Positions 30,001 through 36,000 of a DNA stretch of 64,000 nt are shown here, piece by piece; the first letter of the stretch is position 1, and every line of letters begins with the position of its first letter. A program made the position numbers. The stretch is from Thainema sp. (lineage in GTDB: Bacteria; Cyanobacteriota; Cyanobacteriia; Phormidesmidales; Phormidesmidaceae). Where the stretch lies: the NCBI GenBank assembly GCA_052168235.1, contig JBQLZK010000002.1:224001-288000 (forward strand), read 5' to 3'.

Positions 30001-33000
30001 ACTGAAAATCTGGATAGTTGCGACTGCCTTCAAACATTGATTCCAATTCCTCAACAGTTGCCAGAATTGCCTCTGTGTCTCCATCTGTAACCAATTCTTT
30101 AATCTCTTTGAGCCGTTCTAGCACTCCTGTTTGTCCATCCGGCAACAATGCCTGGAACTGATACCAATTGTAGAGGTGATATAGCAAATGATATGTCATG
30201 CCAATATCCGGTTCACGGTTGGGTTCACATAGAAACAGCTCTAAATCGACTAACCAGTCTATGGCGGCTCCAACTCCGTCCACGTAAGTATGAAAAACAG
30301 CCGTTTTCAACATTTCGCTTGGTGTATTGGGAAAGACTTGGCGAAATGCCCGTTCTGCTTCGCTACTTAGGTCACTTCGCTGTAGCAAGGTTCGTACTAT
30401 TTCCCAACGCTGCTCTCGATTCAGTGGTTTTGGTGTATGTGGATCTTTTGACGGTTGCATCTAATCACACCTAGTAAAACTAATCACCCGCTCTAATCAA
30501 GCGATTTTGGCATATATCTCTATTCGTTATCTCCCAAAAACATCTAATGACACGACTCTCCAATCTTGCTCGCAAAAAGAACATCCATTACTTCCTAATC
30601 TACTTCACTGACCTGTTCGGTACTCAGCGCGCCAAGCTTGTCCCTGCGGCTGCAATTGACGAGATGGCCGCTAGTGGTGCAGATGCGATCGCGCTTCTCA
30701 GAATCTGCATGCTCCAAATCCAACGAATTTTCAGGATTGATTGTTGCAAGATTGAAGATGTAAGCGGGAATACTGAGAAGTGGATCTGCTTAACCGCTGC
30801 TTCATTCTTCTCTGCACTAGCTCTCCGAAGTTTTACTGATTATGTCGCGCCTCCTCGTCACGCAGTATCAATCTGAAGTTGATAGCCTCATCCGCTATGG
30901 TGGGTCGCGCAATGAAGCCAGCATTCGGCGGGCGTTTGAAAATTTGCTGAACCAGTACTGCAAGCCGCGCAACTACATGCTGGTGCCAGAGCTGGACTAC
31001 AAGACCAAGTTCAATACGACGGTTAGGCCCGATGGCACAGTGAAGGATGCTATTCGCCTAGAGCATGGCTGGTGGGAGAGCAAAGACGAATACGACGTGC
31101 TCGATGAGGAAATTGAGAAGAAGTTTGCTAAGGGCTATCCCGACGAAAATATTTTGTTTGAAGACTCCCAGACGGCGGTGCTGTATCAGCATGGGCGGGA
31201 GCAGTTGCGGGTGTCGATGCGCGATGCCGATGAGCTGGACGGGCTGATCGCCACGTTTGTCGATTACGAACGGCCTGAAGTGCGGGACTTTCGGACGGCG
31301 ATCAAAGCCTTTCGCGATGATATTCCTCACATTCTGGAAGCGCTGCGAGATCAAATTCATCAGGCCGAGCGAGAAAATGAGCGGTTCCGGGAACGCCGCA
31401 ACACGTTTCTGGAAGTCTGCCGCCAGTCCATCAACCCGGAAATTGAGATCTTCGACATCCATGAGATGTTGATTCAGCACATTCTCACGGAGGATATTTT
31501 CACCAATATTTTCCATGAGTCGCAGTTTCACCGCGAAAACAACATCGCGCGGGAAATCTCAGAAATTCTCGCCACGTTTTTTACGGGAGCGACGCGCAAG
31601 AATACGCTGAAAAGCATTGAGCACTACTACGCGGTGATCCGCCGCAAGTCGGAAAACATCGCCAATCACCACGAAAAGCAGAAGTTTCTCAAGGCGGTGT
31701 ATGAGAACTTTTACAAGGCGTACAACCCCAAAGCTGCGGATCGGCTGGGCATTGTCTACACGCCGAATGAAATTGTGCGCTTCATGATTGAGAGTGCCGA
31801 TTATTTGACCCACAAGCATTTTGGCAAGCTGCTGAGTGATCCGGGGGTGGAGATTTTAGACCCCTGCACGGGTACGGGCACCTATGTGACGGAGCTGATT
31901 GAGTATTTGCCAACCGATAAGCTGGAGCACAAATATAAGCATGAGATTCACTGCAATGAAGTGGCGATTTTGCCCTATTACATTGCGAACTTGAATATTG
32001 AGTTTACCTATCAGCAAAAGATGGGTAAGTACGAGGAGTTTAAGAATATTTGTCTGGTGGATACACTGGATCACTGCAGTGCAGCAGGCCACCAGTTTGA
32101 CCTGTTTGCTATGAGTGTGCAGAACACGTCGCGGATTCAGCAGCAGAACGATCGCACCATCTCTGTCATCATCGGCAATCCGCCCTACAACGCCCACCAG
32201 GAAAACTTCAATCAGCGCAACGCTAACCGCCCCTACCAAAGTATCGATAAGGCCATCAAAGACAGCTATATCAAGGAAGGCACTGCCCAGAACCAAATCG
32301 TTGTCTACGATATGTATACCCGCTTCTTTCGCTGGGCAACGGATCGATTAGGCAAGAACGGAATCATCGCGTTTATTACTAATCGCTCTTTCATCGACTC
32401 GAAAACCTTTGATGGCTTTCGTAAATGTATTGAGCGAGACTTTGACCATATCTACATTGTGGATACTCAATCAGATGTGAGAAACAATCCCAAAATCTCT
32501 GGCACCAAGAACAACGTTTTTGGCATTCAAACCGGAATCGCTGTGATGTTTTTAGTAAAAGCGCAGGGCTAGACAAGGGGCACAGACAAGGGGCTTAAGC
32601 CCCTTGTTCATAAGGGAGGGGGAGAAGCATGAGCAAGGCGAAAATCTATTACTTTACGCTGCAAGATGAGCAGACCAAGGAAGAAAAGCTGGAGTGGTTT
32701 GAGCAAACCCGTCTAGAGCAAATCCTGTTTGAGCATATCACCCCAGACCGCAAGCACAACTGGGTGAATTTGACCGACAACGATTTTGATGACTTCTTGC
32801 CGCTGATTGATAAGCAGGTAAAGGCAAGTAAGTCACAAGAAGCTGTTTTTCAGCTTTTTTCAGCGGGGGTTAAGACTCAGCGCGATGAGTGGGTTTATGA
32901 CTTCTCAAAAGAAGCGCTAATTGAGCGCATGAAGTATTTCGTCGAGGTATATCAAGAGCGTCTAAGAGATGGATCGCGACGAAATTTAGACATCAAGTGG

Positions 33001-36000
33001 GATCGTGAGCTTGAAAAATATTTGACTAGTAACGTCAAGAAGAGTTTTCATACATCTAATATAGTTCAAAGTATTTACCGACCGTATACAAAACAGTATC
33101 TCTATTTTGATAAGCATTTCAATGGAATGACTTATCAACTTCCAAGTATTTTTCCATCAGCAAAGAAACCTAATAAGGCTATTTGGATTAAATCGGGTAT
33201 AGATGCTCCGTATTTTCATTGGGTTGTAGAGCACATCCCTGATGTGCTTACAAACGGTGGCTCTCAATGCCTCCCCCTCTATCGCTATGACGAAAACGGA
33301 ACCCGCATCGACAACATCACCGACTGGGCATTAGAGCAGTTTCGGCAACATTACAAAGCAGAGTTAGACCAAGCAGCGTCTAAGGCAGCGTCAGGCAAGG
33401 GGCTTAAGCCCCTTGTTCCCCACACAGATGTAGAAAAGCGCAGCGCAGAACAAAACGATCGCTCAGGCGAACCGGGCAAGGGGCTTAAGCCCCTTGTCTC
33501 AGCGGAGCCCCTTGTTCCCCATACATGGTGGTTTGTAACTTTCGTGACTCATAACGCTCGCGTATCCGAACGCATGGTTACTTACGGCGTCAAAAAAGGG
33601 GAACCGCTTATCTTTTCAGCCGAAGATCAAATCTTTATTGCTGAGCAGATTGCTGAAGCTGTCAAACGGTACGAAATTGCGATCGCCGCCTTCAATGTTC
33701 TACCCGATCACGTCCACATGGTGGTTGCCGCATCAACCGAAGCAGAACTGAACGAAAAGATCCGCAAAATCAAAGGTTTTAGTTCTCACCAATATCAGCG
33801 ATCGCGAGACTGGGATAAAGGTCAGCATGTTTGGGCGCAAAAATTTAACCGACAGGCGATCGAAAATGAAATTGCCCTCACTGAGATTTTGGAATATGTG
33901 CTGAATAACCACACTAAACATGCTGAACGCTGGGGCAATGAACTCATTACGATATGGAATGAGGGTGTTACTCCTGGGAACAAGGGGCTTAAGCCCCTTG
34001 TCTTAGAGGGGCCCCTTGCCTCTAGTCGGCCTCTTGCCGAAATTGTGCGAGAAGTCTGCGTTCCGCTTGAAGAGCTTTTCAGCTCTGGAGGGGGAACAAG
34101 GGGCTTAAGCCCCTTGTCTGACCAAGTTGACCAGGCAGAAATCACCAAACTCGACATCTTCCACTACACCTACGCCGTCCTCCACCATCCCGCCTACCGC
34201 ACCAAATACGAACTCAACCTCAAACGCGAATTTCCTCGCCTGCCCTACTACCCCAACTTCCAACAGTGGGCCACCTGGGGCAAAACCCTCATGGATCTGC
34301 ACCTCACCTACGAAACCGCCGCACCCTACGGCCTCGAACGCATTGATCAATCCGGCGTAGGGGCGAATGGCCATTCGCCCCTACAGGCATCGTTAATTCC
34401 CGAAGAAGACACCCCCGCCAAACCCAAGAAAACCCCCAAACCCAAACTCAAAGCCGACAAAACCCAAGGCCATATCATCCTCGATACCGATACCACCCTT
34501 ACCGGAGTGCCCGCCGTTGCCTGGGACTACAAACTCGGCAACCGCTCCGCCCTGGAGTGGATACTCGATCAATACAAAGAAAAGAAACCCAAAGATCCTA
34601 CGATCCGAGAACTCTTCAACACCTACCGCTTCGCCGATTACAAAGAGCACGTCATCGACCTACTCCAGCGCGTCTGCACCGTCAGCGTCGAGACGATGAA
34701 AATCATCCACCAAATGCCCGACACTGTAGAACATGAAGGCGAGGCATGATGGTGCTGTGAGCAACCATTTCAAACTCTCCGATACCAAGAACAACGTCTT
34801 TGGCATTCAAACCAGAACCGCTGTCATGTTTTTAGTAAAAACTGCTGAGGAGAAAAAGCCATGATTCAACCTACTTTGTTAGAGAAACTAGAGGTATTAC
34901 CAGAATCACTACAAACGGAAGTGCTGCATTATGTTGAATTTCTGTTAGAGAAACACCTCAAAAATAAACCACCTAGCCTTTTAGAATTACGGGAAGAATT
35001 ACAGCAGGAATTAGCGCAACTCACGCCGGAAGAAGCGGAAAAGCGTTATGGATATGGTAGCCTGAAAGGCCAGATTATCATGTCTGATGATTTTGACGAG
35101 CCGCTAGAAGATTTAGCAGAGTATATGTAACATGCCGATCCTTTTAGATACTCATGCTGTCCTTTGGTATGTTGAGTCAGATCCTAGCCTTAGTGCTAAA
35201 GCTAAGGCTATTTTAGATGCCAAAAAGAATCTGTTTTTTAGTACTGCTAGCCTGTGGGAAACTGCCATCAAGCTCAATGTCGGTAAACTCCAAATCACTT
35301 CGTCATTTAATCAGCTTCTGATTCGGCTTGAGTTCCTGAATATGGAAATTTTGCCGATCAATACAGAAGATCTCAATACTTATATTGGTCTACCTTTATC
35401 GAAGAATCACCGTGATCCCTTTGACCGTATTTTGGTGGCTCAATCCATTAACCATTCAATGCCTATCTTGAGTGGTGACGAGAAATTTGATTTGTATCCA
35501 GTTCAGCGGGTGTGGGAATGAGCAAGGCAAAAATCTATTACTTTGCTGCGAGATCTGAGGCGGAGATTACGGACAGAAAACCCAGAATCGTGATAATCCA
35601 AGATTGGACTGTAGCGCGATCGCGCTGATTCCCTATACAGCCTTCTTACTCCCCAACCCATGACCCAACCCCTCTCTGACCTCGCCCGCGAAAAAAATAT
35701 CTGCTACTTCCTGATCTCCTTCACCGATTTATTCGGCACCCAACGCGCCAAGCTTGTTCCTGCTGCTGCAATTGACGAGATGGCCGCTAGCGGAGCGGGA
35801 TTTGCCGGATTTGCCACCTGGCTCGACATGACGCCTGCCGATGCCGACATGTTTGCAGTTCCCGACACTGATAGTCTATTCCAGCTACCTTGGAAACCCG
35901 ATGTCGCCTGGATGCCAGCGGATTTGTTTACGCCGAGGATGGATGCGATCGCACAAACGCCGCGCATGGTGCTTCAGCGAGTCCTCCAGCAGGCGCGAGA

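What a model noticed while it worked through the whole genome (the two positions that open the first line are those of the whole stretch)
32629..34749. REP-flanked Y1 (HUH) transposase nested in frame inside a Type ISP-like restriction-modification gene
g00521 is the target-recognition (Type_ISP_C) subunit of a helicase-less Type ISP-like methyltransferase pair (g00520 coupler+MTase, g00521). It carries a ~250-aa in-frame insert (aa 245-495; C2:257361-258114) in the middle of the Type_ISP_C domain. The insert is a complete REP-associated tyrosine transposase: a RAYT-like Y1/HUH domain with intact HUH 'DHVH' and Tyr 'EYVLNNH' motifs. It is flanked by 2+2 copies of a 20-nt perfect palindrome (CAAGGGGCTTAAGCCCCTTG) that are themselves translated, as (K/R)GL(K/S)PL linkers. 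So a whole 'REPtron' sits inside a coding gene without breaking it. Some relatives in other cyanobacteria carry the same insert at the same site, others carry a Vsr/DUF559 n [...]
Evidence so far: pfam.tsv places Type_ISP_C model 2-184 at aa 73-244, Y1_Tnp model 19-120 of 121 at aa 328-426, and Type_ISP_C model 178-342 at aa 496-678. find_repeats shows palindrome copies at C2:257396, 257477, 257981 and 258097, with arms 90-100% complementary. A fifth copy lies in the 56-nt spacer between g00520 and g00521, and only 5 more occur in the whole genome. Among the 120 best of 1161 homologues, 12 have Type_ISP_C+Y1_Tnp (most are 58-65% identical over 99-100% of g00521; one 1233-aa form is fused to the MTase). 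16 have Type_ISP_C+PF04480 (Vsr/DUF559), and the rest are 390-480-aa or ~1035-aa forms without an insert. In the alignment of 16 both kinds of insert start after '..F(R/Q)xHY' and end b [...]
(Added by a program. Inside this text positions count along the whole contig: contig position 224,001 is position 1 of the stretch shown here. "Call 12" and the like, gene names such as g00115 and contig names such as C1 are that model's own, and its searches are not shown. The text may have been shortened before it was handed on; [...] marks where a part breaks off. The agent that wrote the report below was given it as the finding of a first reader that could run no searches.)

Follow-up and report, generated by a model that had tools for sequence, protein, structure and literature searches.

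The report
Hairpin-flanked transposase domain inside restriction gene
A complete DNA-cutting "transposase" domain, bracketed by small DNA hairpins that are themselves translated, sits in frame in a surface loop of a cyanobacterial restriction enzyme, and the same enzyme-plus-hairpin unit recurs inside restriction genes of many bacterial phyla.

Summary
ORF 32629-34749 (706 aa) is the target-recognition subunit of a restriction-modification (RM) enzyme. Residues 243-504 are an in-frame insert: a Y1/HUH domain between four perfect copies of CAAGGGGCTTAAGCCCCTTG, with a fifth copy in the 56-nt spacer upstream.

New findings:
1. The host is a split homologue of the solved Type IIL enzyme DrdV and has its own nuclease. 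It is not merely a helicase-less methyltransferase pair. The insert lies between DrdV residues 839 and 842.
2. The Y1 belongs to a distinct RAYT-like clade. In 26 of 35 genome loci it is nested in frame in RM genes, at two unrelated sites: this loop in cyanobacteria, and the Eco57I methylase core in other phyla. It also occurs free-standing. In 31 of the 35 loci it is flanked by the same or a co-varying hairpin.
3. The Y1 core is under strong purifying selection (omega 0.065).
4. Empty alleles carry exactly 12 nt at the site.
5. Insert presence is scattered over the host tree, while the nested Y1s form one clade.
6. One relative's genome has 73 dispersed extragenic hairpins and a single nested Y1.

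Best reading (0.6): a REPtron-like selfish unit translated as a passenger domain. My literature searches found no description. Two earlier notes of this scan report the Eco57I-type nesting on other DNA.

The parts
30842..32572 (+). g00520: DrdV-like N-terminal nuclease, helical connector/coupler and N6-adenine methyltransferase (576 aa)
   Evidence: Pfam finds ISP_coupler, N6_Mtase and Eco57I. phmmer aligns it with DrdV 7LO5 residues 1-578, E 6.4e-202, with VRPDG...WESKDE aligned.
32587..32606 (.). Hairpin copy 0, in the 56-nt spacer between g00520 and g00521
   Evidence: As ssDNA it folds at -10 kcal/mol, z -5.2.
32629..34749 (+). g00521: target-recognition subunit (706 aa) carrying the in-frame insert
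32629..33354 (+). Host TRD, N-terminal variable half (aa 1-242)
   Evidence: Aligns with DrdV 588-839. AF2 pLDDT is high over aa 90-170.
33355..34140 (+). Segment between the conserved host motifs (786 nt, aa 243-504): linkers, four hairpins and the Y1 domain. Empty alleles have 12 nt here.
   Evidence: 15 loci have exactly 12 nt, and 8 Y1-bearing sites (7 loci plus the window) have 633-849 nt, in frame and without stops.
33396..33415 (.). Hairpin copy 1 (translated as KGLKPL)
   Evidence: -9.1 kcal/mol.
33477..33496 (.). Hairpin copy 2 (translated as KGLKPL), followed by a partial repeat of its right arm
   Evidence: families D1 and D6.
33514..33963 (+). Y1/HUH domain core (aa 296-445): first strand WWFVTFVTHNAR, HUH motif DHVH, Tyr motif YVLNNHTKH
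   Evidence: Pfam Y1_Tnp. AF2 pLDDT 79-95 with a beta-alpha-beta-beta-alpha-beta-alpha order. Foldseek matches 4ER8, 2XQC and 2VJV. omega 0.065.
33981..34000 (.). Hairpin copy 3 (translated as KGLKPL)
33992..34009 (.). 18-nt unit (right arm of copy 3 plus spacer) that varies in copy number between near-identical strains
   Evidence: Contigs of two runs of one study carry an extra in-frame 18-nt copy behind 33991 (table 4).
34097..34116 (.). Hairpin copy 4 (translated in the other open frame, as RGLSPL)
   Evidence: -9.9 kcal/mol.
34141..34749 (+). Host TRD, conserved C-terminal half (aa 505-706)
   Evidence: Aligns with DrdV 842-1026. AF2 pLDDT is high.

Best explanation
This is a REPtron-like selfish unit: a single-copy, RAYT-like Y1/HUH nuclease-ligase together with its cognate DNA hairpins. 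It lives as an in-frame passenger in a surface loop of the target-recognition subunit of a split DrdV-type (Type IIL) restriction-modification enzyme. What is shown: the anatomy, the conservation, the selection on the domain and the distribution across loci. What is inferred: the Y1 domain has no start codon of its own, so it is made only as an internal domain of the 706-aa protein. It is tethered by two disordered linkers of about 40-55 residues encoded by the hairpins, so the restriction fold stays intact. The domain is inferred to bind and cut or rejoin the hairpin in single-stranded DNA, as E. coli TnpA-REP and IS608/ISDra2 TnpA do. That activity would maintain and multiply hairpins around its own gene and, in some genomes, across the chromosome. 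It would also let the cassette enter or leave the 4-codon loop precisely, or spread between alleles by recombination. Riding inside an RM gene, which is itself horizontally mobile, gives the unit both expression and transfer.
For: Anatomy:
- There are four perfect hairpins inside the ORF and one upstream. Each folds as ssDNA at -9 to -10 kcal/mol.
- The outermost copies are inverted relative to each other, judged by their conserved flanks.

Y1 fold and motifs:
- Pfam.
- Weak sequence hits to ISDra2 TnpA, with the HUH and Tyr motifs aligned.
- Foldseek matches E. coli RAYT-REP 4ER8 (E 1.3e-6) and IS608 2VJV (TM 0.69 on the target).

Selection and conservation:
- The median omega of the Y1 core is 0.065 over 16 pairs. 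It is 0.186 (28 pairs) for the host C half and 0.162 (12 pairs) for the host N half.
- The Tyr motif is kept in 18 of 19 rows nested in the DrdV-type loop and in 15 of 19 Eco57I-nested rows.

The hairpin co-occurs and co-varies with the enzyme across phyla:
- The identical 20-mer, or variants with compensatory stem changes, flank the Y1 in 31 of 35 loci.
- Across 15 hairpin variants, 120 of 120 cells pair and 5 of 8 pairs change on both sides.

Distribution:
- A DNA-level scan that does not depend on gene calls gave 35 loci. Of these, 26 are nested in RM genes: 7 in the Type_ISP_C loop and 19 in the Eco57I core. In 25 of the 26 the frame is unbroken as far as the contig reaches.
- Among the best 150 cluster representatives, 51 carry an RM host: 49 Eco57I-type and 2 Type_ISP_C.

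Mobility:
- Fifteen empty alleles have exactly 12 nt at the site.
- On the host tree, the 12 Y1-bearing rows need 10 changes, at least 9 of them forced. On the N half alone 9 rows need 9 changes; on the C half alone 12 rows need 10.
- The window's host part is 93% identical to P0006, which has no Y1, and it groups (support 100) with that protein and a Vsr-bearing one.
- In contrast, all 19 Y1s nested in the DrdV-type loop form one clade, together with one free cyanobacterial copy (support 97).

RAYT-like demography:
- There is one copy of this clade in G000.
- G198 has one nested copy and 73 dispersed hairpins. All 15 hairpins examined lie outside long open frames.

Tolerance by the host fold:
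- AF2 gives confident host halves and a confident Y1 domain, with pLDDT below 50 over aa 258-294 and 445-501.

Ongoing change at the hairpins:
- Near-identical strains differ by an in-frame 18-nt unit next to hairpin 3.
Against: - No activity data exist.
- In this genome the hairpin is rare: 6 copies outside the locus at up to 2 mismatches. So REP dispersal is not evident here.
- NCBI's curated RAYT model is not reached: 54.8 bits against a cut-off of 80.
- No excision joint was seen, but only low-depth contigs were available.
- The scatter on the host tree could come from recombination between host alleles rather than from cassette movement. P0003 and P0005 share identical Y1 columns yet have different host N halves.
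- A pure passenger does not explain the strong preference for RM enzymes at two unrelated sites, or the appended position directly 3' of RM genes in L027 and L038. That preference leaves room for a host function.
- The hairpin rows used for the covariation count were chosen because they form hairpins, and the genome loci were found with the peptide NVLPDHVH. Both are ascertainment biases.
- The backbone of the Y1 tree is weakly supported. It is a quick tree (the careful search did not finish), and its outgroup branch is very long.
Confidence: 0.6

Rival explanations
1. The Y1 is an exapted accessory module. The loop at DrdV 839/842 would be a slot for auxiliary nuclease domains (Y1 here, Vsr/DUF559 in other alleles) that serve the defence function, for example by acting on single-stranded or hairpin DNA of invaders or by helping the enzyme to assemble.
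For: Two unrelated nuclease folds occupy the same loop: 12 Y1 and 16 PF04480 among the best 120 homologues. The Y1 clade associates with RM enzymes at three positions, namely the TRD loop, the Eco57I core, and directly 3' of the gene. The Y1 core is under stronger purifying selection than the host halves. The domain has no start codon of its own.
Against: The host already has the DrdV-type nuclease with its motif intact, as does the fused Y1-bearing form P0028. Most alleles (92 of the best 120) work without any insert. Perfect hairpins that co-vary with the enzyme persist at the DNA level around the domain in every context, including free-standing copies among housekeeping genes. That is expected for a cis-acting mobile unit and is not needed for a plain protein domain.
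Confidence: 0.2
2. The cassette is a reversible switch or diversifier. Y1-catalysed precise excision and reinsertion, or hairpin-guided recombination, would turn the RM enzyme on or off, or swap the variable N-terminal TRD half against the conserved C-terminal half, so changing specificity.
For: The insert sits exactly at the border between a variable half and a conserved half of the TRD. P0003 and P0005 have identical Y1 columns and near-identical C halves but different N halves. The C half has unusually low dS (0.5-0.9, while the Y1 core is saturated) and an odd base composition. Empty alleles carry no scar.
Against: In Eco57I-type hosts the insert lies in the methylase core, not at a TRD border. 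No joint or alternative arrangement was seen, although only contigs were available. AF2 suggests that the insert-bearing protein still folds, so 'off' is not implied.
Confidence: 0.1
3. The insert is a dead relic. A single old insertion would be kept in frame only because the host gene is under selection, and the Y1 domain would no longer do anything.
For: There is a single copy per genome. Few hairpins lie elsewhere in G000. One nested copy is broken (L029).
Against: omega is 0.065 for the Y1 core. The catalytic motifs are conserved. Perfect hairpins are kept in lineages whose Y1 proteins differ by 35-60%. The insert is scattered on the host tree.
Confidence: 0.05

Closest known systems
REPtron: RAYT (TnpA-REP) gene flanked by REP/REPIN palindromes (E. 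coli TnpA-REP, PDB 4ER8). Sources: Quentin et al. 2018 PMC6006769 and Bertels et al. 2017 PMC5581495 (passages read); Ton-Hoang 2012 PMC3333891 and Messing 2012 PMC3479197 (search listing only).
   Same: It has the Y1/HUH fold. It is single-copy per genome. It is flanked by inverted copies of a short GC-rich hairpin. The same hairpin is dispersed extragenically in some genomes (73 in G198). It scores better against the RAYT model than against the IS200 model.
   Different: It is below NCBI's RAYT cut-off. Its Tyr motif ends in NH.KH rather than NP. It has no gene of its own and is translated inside an RM enzyme, with the hairpins translated as linkers. The hairpin is rare in this genome.
TnpAY1 subclass 2.4 of Quentin et al. 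2018 (REPs inserted in frame within the tnpA-REP gene itself)
   Same: REP hairpins sit inside coding sequence without breaking the frame. Relatives of this Y1 also carry hairpins inside the Y1 domain (P0133, P0137, P0138, L027, L032). The taxa overlap (Cyanobacteria, Bacteroidota and various phyla).
   Different: There the REP is inside the transposase gene. Here the transposase plus its REPs is inside another gene. The main text of that paper does not contain the words methyltransferase, methylase or restriction, and it says that unexpectedly long proteins were discarded as fusions or errors. Its supplements were not read. Membership of subclass 2.4 or 2.7 was not tested.
IS200/IS605 insertion sequences (IS608, ISDra2 TnpA; PDB 2VJV, 2XQC)
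   Same: It has the Y1 fold and subterminal hairpins at both ends. Empty sites carry no scar, which fits the precise excision known for that family (this last point is recalled, not tested here).
   Different: It is single-copy, has no independent gene, is below the NCBIfam IS200 cut-off (36 against 55), and its hairpins are perfect identical palindromes present in several copies.
[quoted passage not shown] 2025, PMC11855218; abstract read)
   Same: It is an insertion in a DNA methylase-type gene that stays open in the host frame, is neither an intein nor an intron, is predicted to loop out of the host fold, and carries a nuclease.
   Different: There the HNH nuclease is encoded out of frame. 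Here the nuclease domain is read in the host frame and is of the HUH/Y1 type with DNA hairpins.
DrdV, Type IIL RM enzyme (PDB 7LO5/7LVV; Shen et al. preprint 10.1101/2021.01.06.425610, passages read)
   Same: g00520 and g00521 together cover DrdV residues 1-578 and 588-1026, in the same order: nuclease, connector, MTase, TRD.
   Different: The window's enzyme is split into two genes in different frames at the MTase/TRD border, and it carries the 262-residue segment in place of DrdV residues 840-841.
Earlier notes of this scan on other genomes (e1-3820263, e1-4568522): Y1 nested in the methylase core of Type IIG genes
   Same: They describe the same Y1 clade and hairpin, in frame in an RM gene. 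I found the same arrangement independently in 19 of 35 genome loci and in 49 of the 55 long cluster representatives.
   Different: This window shows a second host family and a second site (the TRD loop of a DrdV-type enzyme). It forms a derived cyanobacterial clade of the Y1 tree.

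Membership tests
RAYT / REPtron | Y1 fold with HUH and catalytic Tyr motifs | tested here: met
   Pfam Y1_Tnp scores 50.8 bits against a cut-off of 23. DHVH and YVLNNHTKH are present. Foldseek matches 4ER8 at E 1.3e-6.
RAYT / REPtron | Score above the curated cut-off of NCBIfam NF047646 (REP_Tyr_transpos) | tested here: not met
   The whole protein scores 54.8 bits and the insert alone 59.7 bits, against a cut-off of 80.
RAYT / REPtron | Single copy per genome | tested here: met
   G000 has no second copy of this clade; the only other Y1 is a canonical IS200-type gene. G198 has one strong hit.
RAYT / REPtron | Gene flanked by cognate palindromes in inverted orientation | tested here: met
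   Two copies lie on each side. The outermost copies have inverted conserved flanks in all 8 Y1-bearing sites (7 loci plus the window).
RAYT / REPtron | The same palindrome is dispersed at high copy number in extragenic DNA of the genome | tested here: inconclusive
   G000 has only 6 copies outside the locus at up to 2 mismatches. Relatives have more: 73 in G198 (15 of 15 examined lie outside long frames), 54 in G218 and 28 in G220. However, G218 and G220 lack a strong hit to this Y1.
RAYT / REPtron | Cleaves and rejoins its REP as single-stranded DNA | not testable with these tools
   No biochemical data.
IS200/IS605 insertion sequence | Score above the NCBIfam transpos_IS200 cut-off | tested here: not met
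   36 bits against a cut-off of 55.
IS200/IS605 insertion sequence | Autonomous element with its own transposase gene, usually in several copies | tested here: not met
   No in-frame start codon lies before the first strand, and there is one copy.
DrdV-type Type IIL RM enzyme (host) | Domain order nuclease, connector, MTase, TRD, with end-to-end similarity to DrdV | tested here: met
   g00520 matches DrdV 1-578 at E 6.4e-202. g00521 matches DrdV 588-839 and 842-1026 at E 6.8e-114. Foldseek's top hit is 7LO5.
DrdV-type Type IIL RM enzyme (host) | Single polypeptide chain | tested here: not met
   There are two ORFs in different frames, separated by 56 nt. Most cyanobacterial relatives are split in the same way, and fused forms of about 1035 aa also exist.
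Type ISP RM enzyme | RecA-like translocase (helicase) domain | tested here: not met
   Pfam finds no such domain in g00520 or g00521. LlaBIII and LlaGI align only from their coupler onward, at chain residues 751 and 587.
Intein or other self-splicing in-frame element | Hint/splicing domain | tested here: not met
   Pfam finds only Type_ISP_C and Y1_Tnp in g00521.

The most novel reading that the evidence does not exclude
The hairpin-Y1 cassette is a domain-level mobile element that homes into permissive loops of restriction enzymes. Its single-strand recombinase activity would drive exchange of the neighbouring specificity half between alleles. On this reading, restriction genes carry a built-in engine that diversifies or toggles their own target recognition.
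Probability: 0.12. Interest if true: 0.9.

Novelty: new variant of a known kind. Interest (0 to 1): 0.72.

Why it matters
RAYT/REP systems are thought of as free-standing, single-copy genes with extragenic hairpins. Transposases are expected to break the genes they enter.

Here an HUH enzyme and its hairpins are read through as part of another protein. This recurs across phyla, at two unrelated sites, always in restriction enzymes, and the nested domain is under strong purifying selection.

That raises three testable questions:
- How does a single-strand transposase work while tethered inside a DNA-binding enzyme?
- Why are restriction genes the preferred home?
- Does the cassette help those genes diversify?

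There are also practical consequences. Automated annotation calls such proteins 'transposase' or 'helicase' (source names). A classification study (Quentin et al. 2018) discarded unexpectedly long proteins as fusions or errors, so the arrangement is easily missed. HUH domains that tolerate internal fusion are of interest as protein-DNA tagging tools.

Tried and rejected
- Excision or empty-site reads. No public run held more than 0.34 of the stretch's sampled words. Laying the contigs of four runs showed no joints. These were low-depth contigs only, so this says nothing about excision.
- Homodimer prediction of the Y1 domain: no answer (score 0.00). This is evidence neither for nor against binding.
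- Rooting the Y1 tree with the genome's own IS200-type TnpA. The outgroup branch is about 10 changes per column, so the root is unreliable.
- The careful IQ-TREE run did not finish. The quick tree was used instead.
- Literature. Searches found no paper on Y1/RAYT domains nested in RM genes. Several of these searches were swamped by 'Huh7' cell-line papers.
- P0006's loop (SSPLAKGGQEGG) looked like an excision scar. Its DNA was not returned by the metagenome scan, so this remains untested. It resembles the repeat flanks of the Vsr-type insert more than it resembles the Y1 hairpin.
- A paralogue of the insert elsewhere in the genome was sought and not found.
- The motif-pair script found both host motifs in only 28 of 70 sequences. 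The other 42 were truncated or failed the strict pattern and were not examined.
- (earlier notes of this scan near this place): nothing to show.

Full report
**1. The observation**

The frame 32629-34749(+) is open for 706 codons. Pfam places Type_ISP_C in two stretches, with Y1_Tnp (aa 328-426; 50.8 bits, cut-off 23) between them.

The 20-nt palindrome CAAGGGGCTTAAGCCCCTTG occurs five times in the window, all perfect, against 0.00 expected. One copy lies in the 56-nt spacer before the gene (32587). Two lie before the Y1 domain (33396, 33477) and two after it (33981, 34097). Each folds as single-stranded DNA at -9 to -10 kcal/mol, far better than shuffles.

One of the palindrome's three reading frames contains TAA. 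The four internal copies use the other two frames and are read as KGLKPL or RGLSPL.

No ATG, GTG or TTG lies in frame between residue 243 and the first strand of the Y1 domain. The domain can therefore only be made as part of the whole protein.

The genome (7.54 Mb, 50% GC, 8979 HIP1 sites, so a cyanobacterium) has only 11 copies of the palindrome within two mismatches, and five of those are in this locus.

**2. The host**

- g00520 aligns end to end with residues 1-578 of DrdV, a solved single-chain Type IIL enzyme (E 6.4e-202). The alignment includes the nuclease motif.
- g00521 aligns with DrdV 588-839 and 842-1026 (E 6.8e-114).
- In the passages I read, the DrdV preprint gives the domain order as nuclease, helical connector, MTase 295-635 and TRD 636-1029. 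It calls the MTase and TRD highly similar to those of Type ISP enzymes.

The host is therefore a DrdV-type restriction-modification enzyme split at the MTase/TRD border. It has its own nuclease and no translocase. The insert replaces two residues of a loop (DrdV 840-841).

**3. The insert as a protein**

With a 101-row alignment, AF2 gives mean pLDDT 68.8. This breaks down as follows:
- The host halves are confident (aa 90-170 and 500-700).
- The Y1 domain is confident (aa 299-445, pLDDT 79-95), with the strand-helix order of Y1 transposases.
- Two stretches have pLDDT below 50 (aa 258-294 and 445-501). These are the hairpin-encoded linkers.

The Y1 part matches E. coli RAYT bound to its REP (4ER8), ISDra2 TnpA and IS608 TnpA. 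By sequence it matches ISDra2 TnpA only weakly.

NCBI's curated models are not reached: RAYT 54.8 bits against 80, and IS200 36 bits against 55. It is a Y1 enzyme nearer to RAYTs than to IS200, but a clade of its own.

**4. The clade and where it lives**

Short relatives share a distinctive set of motifs and often carry GLKPL-like peptides at their ends or inside the domain.

A DNA-level scan of one genome per species with the peptide NVLPDHVH gave 35 loci. Reading the frames, Pfam (L029 was left out because of two stops) and tblastn sort them as follows:

| Context of the Y1 | Loci |
|---|---|
| Nested in the Type_ISP_C loop (all cyanobacteria) | 7 |
| Nested in the Eco57I methylase domain of Type IIG-like enzymes, at model position about 69/70 (Chloroflexota, Chrysiogenota, Aminicenantes, Omnitrophota, Hydrogenedentota, Bacteroidota, Pseudomonadota); one of these is broken | 19 |
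| Directly 3' of an intact Eco57I-type gene (L027) | 1 |
| Rearranged (L004) | 1 |
| Free-standing | 7 |

The free-standing copies lie among housekeeping genes. Two of them (L024, L026) share the same neighbours. A further locus from a cyanobacterial relative (L038) again lies directly 3' of an Eco57I-type ORF.

A search of 1.84 billion cluster representatives found 86 at E<=1e-30 and 341 at E<=1e-10. Of the best 150, 55 are 400 aa or longer. Of those 55, 49 carry Eco57I, 2 carry Type_ISP_C, 1 is fused to CobQ and 3 show only Y1.

Two earlier notes of this scan reported the Eco57I-type nesting on other DNA. This window adds a second host family and a second site.

**5. The hairpin travels with the enzyme**

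Within 450 nt of the Y1 match, the identical 20-mer flanks the domain in three settings:
- the cyanobacterial hosts;
- Eco57I-type hosts of Anaerolineae, Chrysiogenales, Aminicenantes and Omnitrophota;
- the free-standing cyanobacterial copy.

Other loci carry variants whose two arms change together. Four loci showed no hairpin with a stem of 7 or more.

On 15 distinct variants, all 120 cells pair and 5 of 8 pairs show changes on both sides. The caveat is that these rows were chosen as hairpins.

In the 8 sites with the insert in the DrdV-type loop (7 loci plus the window), the outermost copies lie 10-41 nt from the left host edge and 12-24 nt from the right. They have inverted flanks: a short YCAGR-like motif outside and TTCC inside. 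This is the REPtron layout.

Near-identical strains in two runs of one metagenome study carry an extra in-frame 18-nt unit next to hairpin 3. A close relative (L051) has a long run of such units. The hairpin arms are therefore unstable, but they stay in frame.

**6. Selection and mobility**

By Nei-Gojobori, the median omega of the Y1 core is 0.065 (16 pairs). It is 0.186 for the host C half (28 pairs) and 0.162 for the host N half (12 pairs).

The Tyr motif is kept in 18 of 19 and 15 of 19 nested rows. The HUH motif is present everywhere, but the loci were found through it.

At the site itself:
- 15 loci have exactly 12 nt;
- 3 loci have other short inserts (45, 45 and 66 nt, the last itself a palindrome);
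- 8 Y1-bearing sites (7 loci plus the window) have 633-849 nt;
- 2 loci have Vsr-type inserts of 510 and 1164 nt;
- 42 of the 70 sequences gave no motif pair and were not examined.

On a tree of the 120 best homologues built from host columns only, the 12 Y1-bearing rows need 10 changes, at least 9 of them forced (shuffled mean 11.6). The 16 Vsr rows need 8 changes. The halves taken separately give the same picture: 9 changes for 9 rows on the N half, and 10 changes for 12 rows on the C half.

The window's host part is 93% identical to a protein without the Y1. It forms a three-row clade (support 100) containing one allele of each kind.

On the Y1 tree, in contrast, all 19 Y1s nested in the DrdV-type loop plus one free cyanobacterial copy form one clade (support 97) set among Eco57I-nested lineages (quick trees with a weak backbone).

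So the cassette has one origin in this host family, but its presence does not follow the host alleles. It has either moved between alleles or been lost precisely many times. Either way the site turns over. Recombination between host alleles contributes too: P0003 and P0005 share identical Y1 columns but differ in the N half.

**7. REP-like demography**

The exact palindrome occurs in 22 of 401 cyanobacterial genomes sampled, and the reversed control in none. Counts reach 73, 54, 28, 17 and 17.

The genome with 73 copies (G198) has one Y1 of this clade, nested in a 1270-aa frame. All 15 of its hairpins that I examined lie outside long open frames and sit within a larger conserved repeat.

Two hairpin-rich genomes lack a strong hit to this Y1. 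G000 has one copy of the clade plus an ordinary IS200-type gene.

**8. Comparison with print**

In the passages I read, Quentin et al. 2018 describe REPs inserted in frame within tnpA-REP genes of their subclass 2.4. They say that unexpectedly long proteins were discarded as fusions or errors. Their main text does not contain the words methyltransferase, methylase or restriction. Their supplements were not read.

Bertels et al. 2017 (passages read) describe RAYTs as single-copy. Restriction-modification appears only in their reference list.

The ShiLan domain (abstract read) is an in-frame homing insertion in a phage methylase, but its HNH nuclease is read out of frame.

Searches found no description of a Y1 domain nested in a restriction gene.

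**9. Verdict**

The finding is real.

The best explanation is a REPtron-like selfish unit translated as a passenger domain (0.6). The rivals are an exapted nuclease slot (0.2), a switch or diversifier (0.1) and a relic (0.05).

It is a new variant of a known kind. It is part of a wider arrangement that my literature searches did not find described.

Noticed in passing
window 34357-34384: A second, different perfect palindrome of 28 nt (GTAG at one end, CTAC at the other) lies in frame in the variable linker of g00521's C half, read as GVGANGHSPLQ. The genome has 44 copies. It folds at -15.2 kcal/mol and occurs in unrelated metagenome contigs. It looks like the 'double foot' REP type of Quentin 2018. 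PF01797 found no matching RAYT in the genome.
   Followed up: partly
window 34100-34750: The host C-terminal half has a strongly C- and A-rich coding strand (GC skew down to -0.41, AT skew up to +0.48), unlike the N half. Its synonymous divergence between relatives is low (dS 0.5-0.9) while the Y1 core is saturated. This is unexplained. It may reflect gene conversion or a constraint at the DNA level.
   Followed up: partly
window 34756-35544: This looks like the remnant of a second MTase/TRD junction. An 85-nt copy of the 3' end of g00520 (86% identical) lies at 34756-34840. It is followed by a DUF2281 gene (34861-35130) and a PIN gene (35132-35521), which form a toxin-antitoxin-like pair. Then comes a 27-nt copy of the start of g00521 (35518-35544).
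   Followed up: partly
window 30556-30680 and 35672-35796: A 125-nt direct repeat (81% identical) of the 5' end of a glutamine-synthetase-like gene brackets the whole 5.1-kb RM plus toxin-antitoxin island. ORF 30547-30876 starts like the intact gene at 35660-36970.
   Followed up: no
L057 (1164 nt), L101 (510 nt) and proteins P0007, P0014, P0022, P0024, P0112: Vsr/DUF559 nuclease cassettes occupy the same TRD loop. They are flanked by their own translated tandem repeats (for example SPAGEG-type or PLGKG-type peptides). There are 16 among the best 120 homologues, and they need 8 changes on the host tree.
   Followed up: partly
L071:2215-2280; L062 and L074 (45 nt): Other short in-frame inserts occupy the same loop. 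One of them is a 66-nt sequence whose ends are inverted repeats. The loop appears to be a general landing site.
   Followed up: no
L004:3626-4519: In a Caldora MAG the Y1 with its hairpins is read in one frame with a DUF2281 domain, next to phycobilisome genes and with no RM gene nearby. It may be a product of recombination at a hairpin.
   Followed up: no
L027:3800-4600 and L038:122-709: The Y1 lies directly 3' of an Eco57I-type RM gene rather than inside it. This is a third kind of association with RM genes.
   Followed up: partly
L024 and L026: Free-standing copies in a Zixibacteria MAG and an unclassified MAG share neighbours (NAD synthase upstream, a sigma-54 activator downstream). This suggests vertical inheritance, as with RAYTs.
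   Followed up: no
P0170 (656 aa): A cobyrinic-acid-diamide-synthase-like protein (CbiA plus GATase_3) has this Y1 appended at its C terminus. It may be a read-through of a neighbouring free-standing copy.
   Followed up: no
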